DNA from: Thermoleophilia bacterium
GTDB taxonomy: Bacteria; Actinomycetota; Thermoleophilia; UBA2241
Length of the DNA: 64,000 nt
NCBI GenBank assembly: GCA_016933475.1
Contig: JAFGAW010000027.1
Location: 403 to 64,402 of the forward strand
Direction of reading: 5' to 3'
This document shows, in pieces, positions 11,405-17,329 of the stretch (its first letter is position 1; every line of letters begins with the position of its first letter). The notes under the pieces are model-generated. The model saw nothing but the letters and a program-made list of their open reading frames with translations. It searched no databases and had not been told where the DNA came from. A program made the position numbers and the translations under genes.

Positions 11405-12142
11405 TCAGCCGGGCCAGGTGCCCGCGAAGTTCTTCACGCTGCGCAGGGGAGCCTCCTGCTCGTCGCCCTTCGGCTCGGCGGCGAAGCGGTGGTTCCTCTT
11501 GCGCAGGTACTCGGCGAGGCCGTCACGCTCGGCCTCGAGCGTCGCGAGGTGCTTCCCGACCAAGGCATCGACGACGACGTCGTCCACGTCTCGTGTCAAG
11601 GCGATGACCAGGTGAGGTCGGCAGAGCAGACCGGGGGACGCCGCATACTCGGCGCGGAACGCGTCGTCGGCGAGCGCCTCGAGCAAGGTGCGGAGCTTGC
11701 GCTCGGTGGCTTCGTCGGCCGCCTCGCAGAGCCGGCAACGGGTGCGCGCACGTAGCGCGGCGACGACCTTCTGTGCGCGCCGGCCGCGCTTCCCCCCGGG
11801 CGCGGCCGACGTCAGCGCCTCGATGTCGTCGCGCACGAGGTCGCTCATGACGTCGGCGACCCCCGCCAGGTTGTAGATCTGGCCGCTGGCGGCGTCGAAG
11901 AGCATGCGGAAGTGACGCCGGCAGAACCCCTTCGAGGCGCGCAGCTTCTTGCGCAGGCCCACATCGGTCAACCCCTCGTAGGCGAGCCAGTGCAGCCGCG
12001 CACGCTCCTGTTCGTCGAGGACGGTGCACAGAGGGCACTCAGAGCGCTGCGCCGTGCGCACGGCGTCGCGCAGCTTCGTGCCGTGCGGGTCGCCCGAGGT
12101 GCGCCGCTCGCTCGCGTACTTCTCGAAGTCCAGCAGTCCCAT
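11405..12142 (-). CDS. Hypothetical helical protein with two CPxC...CxxH modules (paralogue B), downstream of the dynamin-like GTPase
   Basis: 245 aa; modules ECPLC-x39-CRRH and CRLC-x37-CRPH; no recognisable catalytic motifs; lies 47 nt after paralogue A on the same strand. Confidence 0.5.
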   Translation of the reverse strand: MGLLDFEKYASERRTSGDPHGTKLRDAVRTAQRSECPLCTVLDEQERARLHWLAYEGLTDVGLRKKLRASKGFCRRHFRMLFDAASGQIYNLAGVADVMSDLVRDDIEALTSAAPGGKRGRRAQKVVAALRARTRCRLCEAADEATERKLRTLLEALADDAFRAEYAASPGLLCRPHLVIALTRDVDDVVVDALVGKHLATLEAERDGLAEYLRKRNHRFAAEPKGDEQEAPLRSVKNFAGTWPG

Positions 12143-12189
12143 GCGATCTCCTGCTCCTCGGTCTCCCGTTCCCGCGGCGTCCGGCCGGG

Positions 12190-12867
12190 TCAGGTCGTGT
12201 GGTCTTCTCCGGAGAGCGCGGCGACGGCGGCCCGCCAGCTCTCGCGCTCCTCCGGGGACGGTTCGTCGGTCACGTGCATGTGGTGTGTCCTCAGGTAGCC
12301 GTCGAGATGCTCGACAAGACGCCTCATCTGCCCGCGCTGTACCTCGCGCAGCGACGCTCTCACCGCGTCGGTCATCTCCTCACTCCAGACGAGGCGGAAG
12401 TGCGGCAGGCAGAGGCCCTGCTCGCGCGCCGCGAAGCGGTGCGCGAGCTCCTCCTCGGCCAGGCCGCCGGCGAGCTGCAGCGCGCGGCTCGTCTGCAGGG
12501 AGGCGAGCGTCGTGCAGATGGGGCACGACGCGCCGCCCGTCGCGGGCTCGGGGCGAGAGGCGGTGCGCCGCTTCGTGGACGGGGTCTCCAGGGAGTCGAG
12601 CGCCTCCTGGAGCAGGGGGCGTGCGAGGCTCGCATTGATGAGGCCGTCTCGCCAGGTCTCCTCCTCGAGGTGCTGAAGCGCCCAGGCGTGGCTCCGGCAG
12701 AAGCCTCCGGCGCGCGCGAGCCGGCCCAGCAGTCTGGCGTTCGAGGAGCCCTCGCGGAGCAACGTGCGAAGGGCGCGGTCCTCGTCCTCGTGGGCGAGCC
12801 GGCAGAGGGGACAGCCCGGCAAGGCAAGGACGCGCAGCACCTCGACCTTCTGCAGGCGGTCCAGCAT
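12190..12867 (-). CDS. Hypothetical helical protein with two CPxC...CxxH modules (paralogue A)
   Basis: Start placed at the internal ATG (MLDRLQKVEV) to avoid overlap with the upstream GTPase; modules GCPLC-x38-CRSH and CPIC-x38-CLPH; clear pairwise similarity to 11405-12142. Confidence 0.5.
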   Translation of the reverse strand: MLDRLQKVEVLRVLALPGCPLCRLAHEDEDRALRTLLREGSSNARLLGRLARAGGFCRSHAWALQHLEEETWRDGLINASLARPLLQEALDSLETPSTKRRTASRPEPATGGASCPICTTLASLQTSRALQLAGGLAEEELAHRFAAREQGLCLPHFRLVWSEEMTDAVRASLREVQRGQMRRLVEHLDGYLRTHHMHVTDEPSPEERESWRAAVAALSGEDHTT

Positions 12868-12910
12868 CAGTCGCCGAAGCCGTGGCGTCGTGCGGCGGCG
12901 CGCGGCATCG

Positions 12911-14686
12911 TCAGCCGCCGCCGACGAGGATCGCCCGTGCAGCCCGGATGCTCTCCAGTTCCGCGGAGGCCTGGCGGCGTGCGCTCTCGGCCTCGCCGGC
13001 GGCCAGCCTTCGCTGCTCCAGCCCTCGCGCGACGGCGCCGTCGATGGAGCGCGCAATCCCGTCGAGCTGCTCGTGACCCTCGCGACGGACCCGGAGAGCG
13101 GCTTCGCGGAGACCGGCGGCGAGCTCGCTGCGCAGGCGCCCCGCGTGACGGTTGGCGAGCTCGCCGGCCCGTTCGCGGGAGCGTCGTGCGAGCAGCCGCC
13201 GCCGCAGCGGGCCCGGCACGGGTGCCTGCAGCGCCCCCGTCAGCATCTCGAGGCCGACCGGGTCGTCGCGCAGCTTGACGTCGACCGTCGGGGTGAGCTC
13301 TCCGGGTGACAAGCGCTGCGGGCGGGCGATCGTCACGCCGAGGACGCGCTCGGTGTCCCGGGTCAGCTCGACGGCGAGGCGGTCGAGAGCCTCGAGCAGG
13401 CGGGCCGCCGCGTCTCCCACACCCTCCTGCACGACGGCGGCCTCGAAGGTCGTCCGCGAGGCGAGCGCGGCGGCGATCGTCGCCGCCATGAGCTCGTCGA
13501 CGCGCTTCTCGTCGACCCGCTCGTCGCCCCGCAGGACGGGCTCGAGCGCCTCGAGCAGGTCACTCTCGAGCGCCCGGCGGAAGGCCGCGGCCCGGTCGCT
13601 CAGGGCACGCTCCACCTCCTTCACGCGGTGATCGAAGACGGCGTCCTGCTCTTCGGCAAGGCGGGTGATCGTGCCCCGGCTGGCGGTCAGCTCCTCCAAG
13701 GCGACGCCGAGTTCCTGCTCGCTGCGGCCGGCCACCTCGGCGAGCACCAGGTGCTCGGTCTCGAGCTCGTCGAGCAGGGCGAGGACGCGGCGCTCGGCGC
13801 GTGCGGCGTGCAGCGCCTCGTACCGCTCCTCGAGAAGCGCGGTCAATCGCGAGTGCAGCTCGGGTACGCCGCTCGCCGGGTCGCCGTCGAGGGCGGCCTT
13901 GGCCGACACGGCGAAGACCGGTGCGTCGCTGAGCCCGACGCCGGCCAGACGGCCGGCGACGAACGCGAGAGCCTCGGCTGCCTCGCTGCCCGAGAGGTAG
14001 TCGGTCTTGTTGAGCGCGAACAGCAGCTCGGCGCCGCGCTCGCGGAGATCGACGGCCAGCCGCTCCTCGGCCTCGGTGAGAGGCTGGTCGACCGAGAGCA
14101 CGATGAGTGCCACGTCGACCTGGGGAAGGAAGGCGAGCGTGTGGTGGCTGCCGGTCTCGAGCACCGAGCCGAGACCGGGCGTGTCGACGAGCACCGTGTG
14201 CGACGGGAGGTCGAGCTCCGGCAGCGTGATCTCGACGCGCGACAGGCCACGCCGGTTCCCCGGGTTGCCGGCCTCGGTGACGTAGTCGGCCAGGCGCTCG
14301 ACGTCGAGCGTGGTCTGCGAGCCGTCCTCGGCACAGGCCATCGAGCGCCGGGGACCCCGGCGCAACACGGTGACCACCGACGTGAGGGGGACGACGCCGA
14401 CGGGGAGGAGGCGCCGTCCGGCGAGGGCGTTGAGGAGCGTGCTCTTGCCGCGTTTGAACTCGCCGAGGGCGACGACGTACAGTCCCGCCTCGTCGACGCG
14501 CCGCCGCACGGCGTCGATCCGCTCGCGTTCGCTCTGGTCGAAGCTCCGGAGGCGCAGACGACGGAGGGCTTCGGCCGCCCGACCCGGGGCCTCGGCGGGC
14601 GGCGCCTCGGGGCTCGCGACGGTGGGCGTGTCGGGGGCGACCGGGGCCTCCTCGCCTCGTGTCGCGTGTGCCTCGGCTGGCGTCAC
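12911..14686 (-). CDS. Bacterial dynamin-like protein (large GTPase)
   Basis: G1 GEFKRGKST, G3 DTPGLGS and G4 NKTD motifs with dynamin-like spacing; ~590 aa with a long helical stalk region; GTG start. Confidence 0.75.
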   Translation of the reverse strand: MTPAEAHATRGEEAPVAPDTPTVASPEAPPAEAPGRAAEALRRLRLRSFDQSERERIDAVRRRVDEAGLYVVALGEFKRGKSTLLNALAGRRLLPVGVVPLTSVVTVLRRGPRRSMACAEDGSQTTLDVERLADYVTEAGNPGNRRGLSRVEITLPELDLPSHTVLVDTPGLGSVLETGSHHTLAFLPQVDVALIVLSVDQPLTEAEERLAVDLRERGAELLFALNKTDYLSGSEAAEALAFVAGRLAGVGLSDAPVFAVSAKAALDGDPASGVPELHSRLTALLEERYEALHAARAERRVLALLDELETEHLVLAEVAGRSEQELGVALEELTASRGTITRLAEEQDAVFDHRVKEVERALSDRAAAFRRALESDLLEALEPVLRGDERVDEKRVDELMAATIAAALASRTTFEAAVVQEGVGDAAARLLEALDRLAVELTRDTERVLGVTIARPQRLSPGELTPTVDVKLRDDPVGLEMLTGALQAPVPGPLRRRLLARRSRERAGELANRHAGRLRSELAAGLREAALRVRREGHEQLDGIARSIDGAVARGLEQRRLAAGEAESARRQASAELESIRAARAILVGGG

Positions 14687-14825
14687 ATCCCTCTCCTCAC
14701 GAAAAAAGCTCCTGCCCGGTCGGTTCGGACAGAAGCCATCAGCGCCTCAGCGCGGTTCGCGAGCTTCATCGCGTGGAAAGCACTTTACCACGGGCTCGCC
14801 GAGAGCGTCGAGCGGACTGCTGTAG

Positions 14826-16211
<1,386 letters not shown>

Positions 16212-16480: not shown

Positions 16481-17329
16481 ATGTACTGTCCTGAGTGTGG
16501 CACCGAGGCGGGCGAGGCGAAGTTCTGCCCCGAATGCGGCGCCGATCTCGGAGCGGTGCGGGGCGCCCTCAAGGGCAAGGTGGCCGCCAAAGGGCCGGGC
16601 GGCAAGGCCGGCCCGGGCGGCAGGGCCGGCGGTGGGCGCCAGGGCGGCGCGGCCGGCGGCGGCAAGGGCCACGCGGGCTCCGGCGGGCCTGCCGCTCAAG
16701 AGGCCGCTCCGGCTCCGTCCGGCGGCCTCTCCCCCCGCGTCCTCTGGGTGATCGTCGCCGTCGTCGCCGTCGCGGTCGTCGTCGCGGTCGCACTACTCTC
16801 GGGCGGCAGCGAGCAGCCGGCGGCCGACGCCGGCTCCGGGGGCATGACGTCCGGGGGTGTCACGCCCGTGGCCGTCGACCTCTCCGGCAGCTACCGCGAG
16901 CTCGTGCAGCGGGCCCATGACCTCTACGACCAGGGTGATGCGCTCATCCAGGCCGGGGACTTCGAGCAGGGCGTCGAGTACTTCGCCGCCGCCGCCCAGG
17001 TCTACGAGGCGGCTTGGGCCAAAGAGCCCGGCGACCCCAATGTGGGCACCGACTGGGCGACCTCGCTCTTCTACAGCGGCGACTTCGACGCGGCGGTCGC
17101 CCAGGTCGAGGTCGTCCTCGAGGAGAGCCCCGACTTCCAGCCCGCCTGGTTCAACCTCGGCAACTACCTGCAGCACCAGGCGCGCATGGCCGAGAGTTCG
17201 GGCGACACGGCCGAGGCGGAGCGGCTCAACGAGGCGACGCGAGAAGCCTACGAGACGGCTGCCGAGATCGACCCGGCCTCGGACACGGGCATCGAGGCGG
17301 CGGCACGCGCCGCCGAACTCGCCGAATAG
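16481..17329 (+). CDS. Hypothetical membrane protein: N-terminal zinc ribbon, Gly-rich linker, one TM helix, TPR-like C-domain
   Basis: YCPECGTEAGEAKFCPECG double CxxC; hydrophobic VLWVIVAVVAVAVVVAVALL; helical repeats with conserved Y/F/A/G spacing. Confidence 0.5.
   Translation: MYCPECGTEAGEAKFCPECGADLGAVRGALKGKVAAKGPGGKAGPGGRAGGGRQGGAAGGGKGHAGSGGPAAQEAAPAPSGGLSPRVLWVIVAVVAVAVVVAVALLSGGSEQPAADAGSGGMTSGGVTPVAVDLSGSYRELVQRAHDLYDQGDALIQAGDFEQGVEYFAAAAQVYEAAWAKEPGDPNVGTDWATSLFYSGDFDAAVAQVEVVLEESPDFQPAWFNLGNYLQHQARMAESSGDTAEAERLNEATREAYETAAEIDPASDTGIEAAARAAELAE

What the first reader, a model, noticed from the sequence alone, without database searches (positions are those of the whole stretch)
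11405..14686. Operon of a dynamin-like GTPase with two paralogous twin-CPxC...CxxH proteins of unknown family
Three co-directional minus-strand genes separated by 43 and 47 nt. They encode a ~590 aa bacterial dynamin-like protein (G1 GEFKRGKST, G3 DTPG, G4 NKTD). Two mutually similar helical proteins of 226 and 245 aa follow. Each small protein carries two copies of a CxxC-x37-41-CxxH module: GCPLC...CRSH and CPIC...CLPH in one; ECPLC...CRRH and CRLC...CRPH in the other. That is four putative Cys3His metal sites per pair and an internal duplication as well as a gene duplication. I cannot assign the small proteins to any family I know (they do not look like ZAS anti-sigma, HypA, rubredoxin or zinc-ribbon proteins). 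Characterised bacterial dynamins come as tandem dynamin pairs or dynamin fusions, not paired with Cys-rich partners. These may be metal-dependent adaptors or regulators of a membrane-remodelling GTPase. The locus is divergent from eno.
Basis: partly seen in the sequence, partly recalled or inferred. Interest (0 to 1): 0.75.

Follow-up and report, generated by a model that had tools for sequence, protein, structure and literature searches.

The report
Fluoride-switched dynamin and DUF6062 operon
A three-gene operon for a bacterial dynamin-like GTPase and two cysteine-rich DUF6062 proteins sits behind a fluoride-sensing RNA switch; in many phyla both protein families are found under such switches, sometimes fused, which points to a part of the microbial fluoride-stress response that I could not find described.

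Summary
Three minus-strand genes encode a 591-aa dynamin-like GTPase and two paralogous helical proteins of 225 and 245 aa. Each small protein has two CxxC-x34-CxxH modules. The small proteins do belong to a family: both are Pfam DUF6062, a large uncharacterised family whose eight Cys/His are invariant.

The 241-nt leader holds a fluoride riboswitch (Rfam RF01734) whose 3' strand overlaps a terminator, the usual fluoride ON-switch layout. It is the only such hit in this genome.

- About 55 of 80 loci of this dynamin subfamily, from more than 15 phyla, have the aptamer directly upstream.
- At least 24 of 80 independent DUF6062 loci do too.
- Among 29 riboswitches sampled in the phylum, this dynamin is the first gene as often as CrcB (8 versus 7).

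The dynamin-DUF6062 link is real but facultative. It includes adjacency in several phyla and one clade of dynamin-DUF6062 fusion proteins. Most DUF6062 genes lack a dynamin, however, and the 245-aa paralogue belongs to a mostly stand-alone clade.

Best reading: a fluoride-induced membrane-stress module with metal-binding DUF6062 partners. Fluoride control is well supported; the biochemical roles are inferred.

The parts
14723..14782 (-). Fluoride riboswitch aptamer (crcB motif, RF01734) in the 5' leader of the operon
   Evidence: Rfam cmscan gives 32 bits (gathering score 34), E 2.4e-7 to 3.3e-6, covering model positions 1-64 of 64 with all conserved nucleotides. It is the only RF01734 hit in the 64-kb window and in the 2.5-Mb genome. 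The orthologous locus L009 has the same element at the same place. In 57 related aptamers the pseudoknot, which my search model did not include, is 99.7% paired with two-sided changes.
14702..14737 (-). Expression platform: a 12-bp terminator hairpin (14737-14707) and a U-tract (14707-14702). Its 5' arm (GGCUUCU...) is the 3' pseudoknot strand of the aptamer.
   Evidence: Terminator-like site from the scan. The overlap with the aptamer is read directly from the sequence. The leader folds with z = -4.0 against shuffles. Weinberg 2010 (PMC2864571) describes this overlap as the usual ON-switch layout.
12911..14686 (-). Single bacterial dynamin-like GTPase (591 aa): G domain about 69-270, long helical neck and trunk, and a low-confidence tip loop about 460-483
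   Evidence: Pfam Dynamin_N E 4.3e-20. PDB sequence hits are C. jejuni DLP 5owv, Nostoc BDLP 2j68 and IniA 6j72. The AF2 model has pLDDT 81.7. Foldseek top hits are BDLP 2j69 at E 2.2e-19 and IniA 6j72 at E 3.3e-16. It is the only true dynamin in the genome.
12190..12867 (-). DUF6062 protein A (225 aa), two CxxC-x34-CxxH modules; belongs to a clade that mostly lies directly after a dynamin gene
   Evidence: PF19538 at 34.7 bits, above the cut-off. In the tree its clade has support 100/99, and 4 of its 5 members lie directly downstream of a dynamin.
11405..12142 (-). DUF6062 protein B (245 aa), two CxxC-x34-CxxH modules and the C-terminal RKxD(Y/H)RF..EP.G.E motif; belongs to a clade that mostly stands alone
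   Evidence: PF19538 at 56 bits. The AF2 model has pLDDT 80.5, is all-helical, and puts each CxxC and CxxH at a helix N-terminus. Its clade has support 100/100; members L011, L012 and L007 have no dynamin but have their own fluoride riboswitch.

Best explanation
This is a fluoride-inducible operon.

**Shown**
- The leader RNA carries a crcB-type fluoride aptamer. Its 3' pseudoknot strand is also the 5' arm of an intrinsic terminator.
- Both protein families recur under such switches.

**Inferred from the established mechanism of this riboswitch class**
- Bound fluoride locks the pseudoknot, the terminator cannot form, and RNA polymerase reads into the three genes.

**Gene products**
- Gene 1 is a single-chain dynamin-like GTPase of the BDLP/IniA/mitofusin type.
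- Genes 2 and 3 are DUF6062 proteins: all-helical, internally duplicated, each with two invariant Cys3His sites that most likely bind a metal. Zinc is my guess.

**Proposed function (inferred)**
- On fluoride stress the GTPase acts on the cytoplasmic membrane, by repair or stabilisation. Membrane integrity and potential are what keep HF/F- out and drive its export.
- The A-type DUF6062 works directly with the GTPase as a metal-dependent adaptor or regulator.
- The B-type DUF6062 is a more general fluoride-response protein that has been recruited into the same transcript.
- This genome's only dynamin sits behind an ON-switch. That suggests a dedicated stress effector, not a housekeeping enzyme being topped up.
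For: **Riboswitch in the window**
- full-length match with all conserved nucleotides.
- and the sequence: the terminator overlaps the aptamer.
- it is the only hit in the genome.
- it is conserved in orthologue L009.

**Dynamin subfamily under the switch**
- 118 aptamer hits in the 80 dynamin loci.
- By my reading, 55 of 80 loci have one within about 400 nt upstream on the same strand; 35 of these score 25 bits or more.
- Rfam's own model at its gathering score confirms 7 of 8 loci tested.
- The two same-class genomes that have the dynamin (G029, G039) also have the aptamer directly upstream.

**DUF6062 under the switch**
- 24 of 80 independent loci have the aptamer immediately upstream, and 10 more have it within 3 kb.
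- Rfam at gathering score confirms 9 of 12 loci tested.
- This includes stand-alone B-type genes: L011, L007, and L012, where the gene follows a Na/H exchanger and Usp.

**Count from the riboswitch side**
- Of the 29 best riboswitch loci in 150 genomes of the phylum, the first gene is this dynamin in 8, CrcB in 7, DUF190 in 4, a Na/H exchanger in 3, DUF6062 in 1 and NADHdh in 1.

**Aptamer structure**
- 98.2% of cells are paired. The unmodelled pseudoknot is 99.7% paired, with AU/GC and CG/UA swaps.

**Direct dynamin-DUF6062 coupling**
- Fusion proteins P0260 and P0262, and fusions in L032, L053, L058 and L113, form one clade (support 99/93). The titled ones are from Acidobacteriota, Verrucomicrobiota and Thermodesulfobacteriota.
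- An ESM Atlas cluster of 149 such fusions exists.
- DUF6062 lies immediately downstream of the dynamin in L009, L032, L033, L061, L063, L077, L101 and L103.
- DUF6062 is the largest recurring family directly downstream of these dynamins.

**Metal site**
- Eight invariant Cys/His, each at a helix N-terminus in the model.

**Context**
- Other recurrent neighbours are enolase, Na/H exchanger, Usp, HAD or histidine phosphatase, pyrophosphatase, FHL-like complex and MutS_V ATPases.
- Several of these match the published fluoride regulon (PMC2864571; PMC11139923).
Against: - The window's own aptamer scores 32 bits, 2 below Rfam's gathering score. Fluoride binding and induction are untested.
- The partnership is facultative. 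70 of 80 dynamin loci have no DUF6062 within 8 kb. Only 1 of 80 mainstream DUF6062 loci has a dynamin. Adjacency is scattered over the dynamin tree, so some co-location may only reflect the clustering of fluoride-regulon genes.
- The B-type clade is mostly dynamin-free.
- The metal-site geometry was not inspected, because no coordinates are returned. The identity of the metal is a guess.
- The membrane role is inferred only from the dynamin family. The putative membrane loop has low confidence.
- No CrcB exporter was found in this 80%-complete genome, so the rest of its fluoride defence is unknown.
- I could not read Baker et al. 2012, so I cannot exclude that these families appear in its gene lists.
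Confidence: 0.6

Rival explanations
1. Co-regulon neighbours only. The dynamin and the DUF6062 proteins each answer to fluoride independently. They lie together because fluoride-response genes cluster in islands, and there is no physical or functional coupling. On this reading DUF6062 would be, for example, a redox (CxxC), Fe-S or metal-buffering protein that counters the metal and oxidative stress caused by fluoride.
For: - Most DUF6062 loci lack a dynamin (1 of 80), and most dynamin loci lack DUF6062 (70 of 80).
- B-type DUF6062 stands alone behind its own riboswitch.
- Some loci hold 4 to 7 aptamers with mixed regulon genes: L046, L057, L015, L028.
- Adjacency is scattered on the dynamin tree.
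- The review PMC11139923 links fluoride to disturbed divalent-metal balance and oxidative stress.
Against: - Covalent dynamin-DUF6062 fusions form one conserved clade across at least three phyla, and an Atlas cluster holds 149 of them.
- The A-type clade lies directly after a dynamin in 4 of 5 members, sometimes with overlapping stop and start codons.
- DUF6062 is the most recurrent gene family directly downstream of these dynamins.
Confidence: 0.25
2. One reading: the two small proteins are dedicated metal-dependent adaptors or regulators of a membrane-remodelling GTPase, and fluoride plays no role.
For: Operon structure, conserved Cys/His, and recurrent adjacency and fusion with dynamins.
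Against: - The family is overwhelmingly dynamin-independent.
- The B-type clade is stand-alone.
- Fluoride riboswitches precede both families with or without the other partner.
Confidence: 0.1
3. The riboswitch match in this window is a chance or decayed element, and the operon is not fluoride-controlled here.
For: The score is 32 bits against a gathering score of 34. There is no experimental test. No sigma-70-like promoter was found.
Against: - The match is full-length with every conserved nucleotide, and the pseudoknot keeps pairing through changed letters (and the sequence).
- The terminator overlaps in the canonical way.
- The same element is present in orthologue L009.
- It is the only hit in 2.5 Mb, and it lies exactly in the leader of a gene family that carries the element in most other loci.
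Confidence: 0.05
4. An anti-phage defence module of the dynamin (LeoA-like) type, with Cys-rich accessory proteins.
For: - Weak PADLOC hits of the GTPase to LeoA (E 1.2e-6) and LeoBC.
- Patchy, accessory distribution: not found in 12 same-genus genomes.
- One B-type homologue lies beside restriction-modification and AbiE genes.
Against: - The PADLOC hits are generic dynamin similarity, and DUF6062 has none.
- The genome holds only one dynamin, whereas LeoABC needs several.
- The regulator is a fluoride sensor, and the recurrent neighbours are ion-homeostasis and metabolic genes, not defence genes.
Confidence: 0.03

Closest known systems
Fluoride (crcB-motif) riboswitch operons, Rfam RF01734: crcB/Fluc, CLC-F, Na+/H+ antiporters, enolase, pyrophosphatase, HAD phosphatases, formate hydrogen lyase, mutS-like genes
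   Same: The aptamer has the same conserved nucleotides, P1 and P3 helices, pseudoknot and overlapping terminator, and so the same ON-switch logic (PMC2864571). Related loci hold the classical regulon members side by side with these genes.
   Different: The genes controlled here are a dynamin-like GTPase and DUF6062 proteins. I found neither named in the papers I could search or read. No exporter is in this operon, and no CrcB was found in the genome.
Characterised bacterial dynamin-like proteins: Nostoc BDLP (2j68/2j69), M. smegmatis IniA (6j72), C. jejuni DLP1/2 (5owv), B. subtilis DynA
   Same: A G domain with G1-G4 motifs and a helical neck and trunk. The best sequence and fold matches are to these proteins. 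From general knowledge, several of them are linked to membrane or envelope stress.
   Different: - It is a single gene, not a tandem pair or a two-headed fusion.
- It forms its own subfamily (GEFKRGKS P-loop, about 590 aa), far below the NCBIfam DynA cut-off (50.9 against 1600 bits).
- It is fluoride-riboswitch controlled.
- It is recurrently partnered with, or fused to, DUF6062.
Pfam PF19538 (DUF6062)
   Same: Both small proteins score above the curated cut-off and share all invariant residues.
   Different: I found no paper that names the family. This work adds the internal duplication, the common tandem pairs and fused doubles, fluoride-riboswitch control, and the dynamin link.
Dynamin-type anti-phage systems (LeoABC in PADLOC)
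   Same: A dynamin-family GTPase with weak LeoA/LeoBC similarity and a patchy distribution.
   Different: There is one dynamin only, no Leo partners, a fluoride sensor as regulator, and non-defence neighbours.

Membership tests
Fluoride riboswitch (RF01734) | Score at or above Rfam's gathering score (34 bits) | tested here: not met
   The window element scores 32 bits and orthologue L009 scores 32.3. Many sister elements upstream of homologous genes score 35-59 bits.
Fluoride riboswitch (RF01734) | Conserved core nucleotides, with P1 and P3 helices covering the whole model | tested here: met
   The match covers model positions 1-64 of 64, including GCGAUG..G.UCGC, AACCGC and GCUGAUG.CU.CU. P1 is 99.6% paired and P3 94.5% paired across 57 related aptamers, with two-sided changes.
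Fluoride riboswitch (RF01734) | Pseudoknot between the P1 loop and the 3' tail | tested here: met
   In the window GAAGCU pairs with GGCUUC. In the 57-sequence alignment the six pairs are 99.7% paired with AU/GC and CG/UA swaps, although the search model held no pseudoknot.
Fluoride riboswitch (RF01734) | An expression platform that competes with the aptamer (a terminator overlapping the 3' strand), placed in the 5' UTR of the regulated gene | tested here: met
   A 12-bp hairpin and U-tract at 14737-14702 shares GGCUUCU with the pseudoknot, 15 nt before the Shine-Dalgarno and GTG start.
Fluoride riboswitch (RF01734) | Selective binding of fluoride and fluoride-dependent gene induction | not testable with these tools
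   Needs in-line probing, transcription assays or reporter assays.
Dynamin superfamily / bacterial dynamin-like protein | Large GTPase domain with G1-G4 motifs; Pfam Dynamin_N above its cut-off | tested here: met
   PF00350 at 72.8 bits against a cut-off of 27. The motifs are invariant in 20 homologues.
Dynamin superfamily / bacterial dynamin-like protein | Helical neck and trunk (stalk) following the G domain; BDLP or mitofusin-like fold | tested here: met
   The AF2 model has pLDDT 81.7 with long helices 274-588. Foldseek gives BDLP 2j69 at E 2.2e-19 and IniA 6j72 at E 3.3e-16 over about 600 columns. TM scores are low (0.33-0.38), which could reflect a different hinge conformation.
Dynamin superfamily / bacterial dynamin-like protein | Membrane binding and GTP-dependent self-assembly | not testable with these tools
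   There is only a conserved, low-confidence tip loop at about 460-490.
Dynamin superfamily / bacterial dynamin-like protein | Tandem pair or two-headed fusion (common in BDLPs, not strictly defining) | tested here: not met
   The genome holds only one true dynamin.
Pfam DUF6062 (PF19538) | Profile score above the curated cut-off | tested here: met
   34.7 and 56 bits against a cut-off of 27.
Pfam DUF6062 (PF19538) | Two CxxC...CxxH modules (eight invariant Cys/His) | tested here: met
   Invariant in alignments of 13, 60 and 14 sequences. Present in 49 of the 50 domains taken from loci.
Pfam DUF6062 (PF19538) | Metal binding by the Cys3His sites | not testable with these tools
   No coordinates are returned for the model. 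Needs metal analysis of purified protein.
LeoABC / dynamin-type defence system | LeoA together with LeoB/C dynamin-like partners in one locus | tested here: not met
   Only weak generic hits and a single dynamin in the genome.
   The ligand order here is CxxC first and CxxH 34 residues later. There is no Pfam anti-sigma hit at E up to 1.

The most novel reading that the evidence does not exclude
A widespread subfamily of single bacterial (and some archaeal) dynamin-like GTPases, together with the DUF6062 metalloprotein family, forms an unrecognised effector arm of the fluoride response. In some phyla it is as common behind fluoride riboswitches as the CrcB exporter. DUF6062 would be a dedicated fluoride-stress metalloprotein that can dock on, or be fused to, the dynamin. 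This would give a bacterial dynamin a defined natural inducer for the first time.
Probability: 0.5. Interest if true: 0.85.

Novelty: new variant of a known kind. Interest (0 to 1): 0.8.

Why it matters
**For bacterial dynamins.** As far as I know, most bacterial dynamin-like proteins have no known physiological trigger. A riboswitch names the signal, here fluoride. If this holds, a whole subfamily found in more than 15 phyla becomes testable: add NaF, then watch expression, localisation and membrane integrity.

**For fluoride biology.** The response is mostly described in terms of exporters, pH and phosphate homeostasis, and over-production of inhibited enzymes. A membrane-remodelling GTPase and a new Cys3His protein family would add a structural or membrane arm to it. 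They would also explain two common but unannotated classes of riboswitch-controlled genes.

**For applications.** The review PMC11139923 identifies fluoride tolerance as a bottleneck for organofluorine degradation and biosynthesis.

**For annotation.** DUF6062 would gain its first functional context.

Tried and rejected
- **Complex prediction.** Dynamin with the A-type DUF6062 and two Zn returned no verdict. It is not used as evidence either way.
- **Search for longer DUF6062 proteins** found nothing. This is a limit of the word index; the fusions turned up later through the dynamin query.
A narrower alignment worked.
- **Fold searches for DUF6062.** Foldseek against PDB gave nothing below E 0.1. 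VIA-align wide gave a best Z of 5.1 over 64 residues. The profile against PDB sequences gave nothing. The Atlas feature search with PF19538 left out gave nothing. None of this shows that the fold is new.
- **hhalign of DUF6062 against the dynamin family** gave probability 1.4%. I found no DUF6062-like region in the dynamin, including its C-terminal half.
- **PADLOC** gave only weak LeoA/LeoBC hits for the GTPase and none for DUF6062, so I set the defence reading aside.
- **Promoter scan** found no sigma-70-like site. This is uninformative in a 72% G+C organism.
- **Zn-ribbon/HEAT partner** was not found in this genome with one query, which does not show absence.
- **Baker et al. 2012** (PMC4140402) is not held.
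- **Literature searches.** DUF6062, PF19538 and 'fluoride riboswitch' with 'dynamin' returned no papers. 'Fluoride riboswitch' with 'GTPase' returned eight papers, and none looked relevant from the title and abstract.
- **Metatranscriptome contigs**: I draw no conclusion from the lack of RNA contigs over the coding regions.
- **Sequencing runs** with small shares of the stretch are not used to name a habitat.

Full report
**1. The observation**

Three minus-strand ORFs lie where stated: 12911-14686 (591 aa), 12190-12867 (225 aa) and 11405-12142 (245 aa). The spacers are 43 and 47 nt, and the genes are divergent from enolase at 14928.

The first protein has the motifs GEFKRGKST, DTPG and NKTD, and matches Pfam Dynamin_N at E 4.3e-20. 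Its closest solved relatives by sequence are C. jejuni DLP, Nostoc BDLP and mycobacterial IniA. An AlphaFold model (pLDDT 81.7) matches BDLP 2j69 at E 2.2e-19 and IniA at E 3.3e-16. It is the only true dynamin in this 2.5-Mb, 80%-complete genome.

The two small proteins are paralogues at 24% identity, E 1e-9. Each has two CxxC...CxxH modules.

**2. The small proteins**

Both score above the curated cut-off of Pfam PF19538, DUF6062. No paper in the library names this family.

The family is large. A profile search finds 4772 cluster representatives at E up to 1e-3. The eight Cys/His are invariant in 60 diverse members, along with one Gly. The two halves of the domain align with hhalign probability 98%, E 1.2e-13, so the internal duplication is real.

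The model of the 245-aa protein (pLDDT 80.5) is all-helical, and every CxxC and CxxH sits at a helix N-terminus. No solved fold resembles it.

About 60 of the best 150 hits are proteins of 420-550 aa with two DUF6062 domains and four Cys pairs. About 25 of 80 independent loci carry two or more adjacent DUF6062 genes. Pairing of DUF6062 units is therefore a trait of the whole family.

**3. The link to dynamins**

*From the DUF6062 side.* In 396 good genomes of the phylum, 15 have the family. In 7 of the 17 loci a dynamin lies within 10 kb.

*From the dynamin side.* The window's GTPase belongs to a subfamily of single dynamins of about 590 aa, with 585 relatives in species-representative genomes. 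In the best 80 loci, DUF6062 lies within 8 kb in 10:
- It follows the dynamin on the same strand in loci titled Dehalococcoidales, Bacteroidetes, Thermotogae, Kryptoniota and Binatia.
- It lies beside or near it on the opposite strand in two Solirubrobacterales loci.

DUF6062 is the largest recurring family directly downstream.

*Fusions.* P0260 and P0262 have a G domain followed by a complete DUF6062 domain. More fusions occur in L032, L053, L058 and L113. An ESM Atlas cluster holds 149 such proteins. The fused domains form one clade with support 99/93.

*Limits of the link.*
- 70 of 80 dynamin loci lack DUF6062.
- An unbiased sample of 80 mainstream DUF6062 loci has a dynamin in only 1.
- Adjacency is scattered over the dynamin tree.
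- The two window paralogues differ. Protein A falls in a clade where 4 of 5 members directly follow a dynamin. Protein B falls in a clade where 3 of 5 members have none.

**4.

A terminator-like hairpin with a U-tract lies in the leader, 15 nt before the Shine-Dalgarno. Rfam then finds a full-length fluoride riboswitch (RF01734) at 14723-14782 on the minus strand, at 32 bits and E about 1e-6 to 1e-7.

Every conserved nucleotide is present. The pseudoknot pairs GAAGCU with GGCUUC. The 3' pseudoknot strand is also the 5' arm of the terminator. Weinberg et al. 2010 describe this layout and read it as an ON switch (PMC2864571).

The score is 2 bits under Rfam's gathering score. Against a chance match:
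- It is the only hit in the window and in the genome.
- The orthologous locus L009 has it in the same place.

**5. Fluoride control is the common theme of both families**

Rfam finds aptamers upstream of a stand-alone B-type DUF6062 (L011), upstream of a Na/H-exchanger-Usp-DUF6062 operon (L012), and three times in L033, where the dynamin, DUF6062 and enolase follow one another.

I built a covariance model from seven of these aptamers and scanned all loci.

| Sample | Result |
|---|---|
| 80 dynamin loci | 118 hits. By my reading 55 loci have one within about 400 nt upstream on the same strand (35 at 25 bits or more). One is a Methanolinea (archaeal) MAG. |
| 8 dynamin loci, Rfam at gathering score | 7 confirmed |
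| 80 mainstream DUF6062 loci | 24 have the aptamer immediately upstream, 10 more within 3 kb. Many others have no upstream flank. |
| 12 DUF6062 loci, Rfam at gathering score | 9 confirmed |

In 57 of these aptamers, 98.2% of pair cells are paired. The pseudoknot, which my model did not contain, is 99.7% paired with AU/GC and CG/UA exchanges.

*From the riboswitch side.* Among the 29 best RF01734 loci in 150 genomes of the phylum, the first downstream gene is:

| First downstream gene | Loci |
|---|---|
| This dynamin | 8 |
| CrcB | 7 |
| DUF190 | 4 |
| Na/H exchanger | 3 |
| DUF6062 | 1 |
| NADH-dehydrogenase/FHL-like | 1 |
| Unassigned | 5 |

. The known regulon members serve as a positive control.

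**6. Wider neighbourhood**

Recurrent neighbours of DUF6062 and of these dynamins are:
- Zn-ribbon/HEAT proteins
- histidine phosphatases and a HAD hydrolase
- enolase
- Usp/CBS proteins
- Na/H and Mrp antiporters, and MFS transporters
- pyrophosphatase
- an FHL-like complex
- MoxR/DUF58/DUF4129
- MutS_V-only ATPases

. Several of these classes are the published fluoride regulon (PMC2864571; PMC11139923). That review contains none of the words GTPase, MutS, zinc or dynamin. No paper holds both 'fluoride riboswitch' and 'dynamin'. I could not read Baker et al. 2012, so prior listing in its supplement cannot be excluded.

**7. Distribution**

Neither DUF6062 nor this dynamin was found in the 12 same-genus genomes searched. 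In the 24 same-family genomes the dynamin was not found, and DUF6062 was found in two. The operon therefore looks like an accessory insertion between mazG and eno.

**8. Mechanism**

*Shown.* The aptamer-terminator architecture, the family assignments, the invariant Cys/His, the recurrent riboswitch control, and the fusions.

*Inferred.*
- Fluoride binding prevents termination and switches on the operon.
- The dynamin acts on the membrane under fluoride or acid stress.
- DUF6062 binds metal.
- Protein A works with the dynamin, and protein B is a general fluoride-response protein.

The main rival is that the genes are only co-regulated neighbours. The fusions and the A-type clade argue against it but do not exclude it.

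**9. Verdict**

The main result is new context: a fluoride-switched dynamin/DUF6062 module. I rate it a new variant of a known kind (a fluoride-riboswitch operon with new cargo), interest 0.8.

Noticed in passing
window 14685-14927: Contigs from two metatranscriptome libraries of the likely source study match the leader perfectly: X8 over 14685-14897 and X9 over 14726-14927. No listed RNA contig bridges into the coding regions. This fits an abundant short leader transcript, but the region could equally be an enolase 5' UTR or carried-over DNA, and contigs show no strand.
   Followed up: partly
L046, L057, L015, L028, L033 (related loci): These are fluoride-riboswitch 'islands', with 4 to 7 aptamers in 17-20 kb on both strands, each in front of a different gene.
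   Followed up: partly
L031, L032, L035, L046, L055, L057, L058, L061, L062, L066, L083, L087, L112: MutS_V-only ATPase genes, often in pairs, recur beside this dynamin subfamily. 'mutS' was an early known crcB-motif neighbour (PMC2864571), so dynamin, MutS-like ATPase, Zn-ribbon/HEAT and DUF6062 may form one larger module.
   Followed up: partly
L020, L022, L023, L027, L028 (between dynamin and DUF6062): Two small helical proteins without any Pfam family recur here, followed by a histidine phosphatase. One is about 130 aa. The other is about 165 aa and ends in ...VEFFRR. A Zn-ribbon/HEAT protein also lies next to DUF6062 in L023 and L024.
   Followed up: partly
L115-L194, e.g. L131:9444-10364: An unannotated protein of about 215 aa follows DUF6062 in 14 to 18 loci and has no Pfam match.
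   Followed up: no
L033:13486-13585: A pyrrolysine insertion element (PYLIS_2, 47 bits) lies inside dimethylamine methyltransferase genes, on the same contig as a dynamin-DUF6062-enolase operon. That organism probably reads UAG as pyrrolysine.
   Followed up: no
L023 (G272) 12510-14277: The dynamin next to DUF6062 is split into three ORF pieces. It is either a decaying gene or carries assembly errors.
   Followed up: no
L008:2231-2299: A strong aptamer hit (53 bits with my model) lies between an A-type DUF6062 gene and a MoxR AAA+ ATPase gene. MoxR, DUF58 and DUF4129 genes also recur near mainstream DUF6062.
   Followed up: no
L061:9821-10570: The Dehalococcoidales DUF6062 that follows a dynamin has lost the first CxxC. 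One of the two putative sites is therefore dispensable in that lineage.
   Followed up: no
window 16481-17329: A zinc-ribbon, transmembrane and TPR protein lies between enolase and pyruvate kinase. It is not the Zn-ribbon/HEAT type found beside DUF6062 elsewhere.
   Followed up: partly
whole genome G000: No CrcB (PF02537) was found in this 80%-complete genome, although it has a fluoride riboswitch. CLC-F was not searched.
   Followed up: partly
L084 (Methanolinea sp. MAG) 2099-2167: An archaeal genome carries the same dynamin subfamily with a fluoride aptamer directly upstream. An Atlas DUF6062 cluster is 53% archaeal.
   Followed up: no
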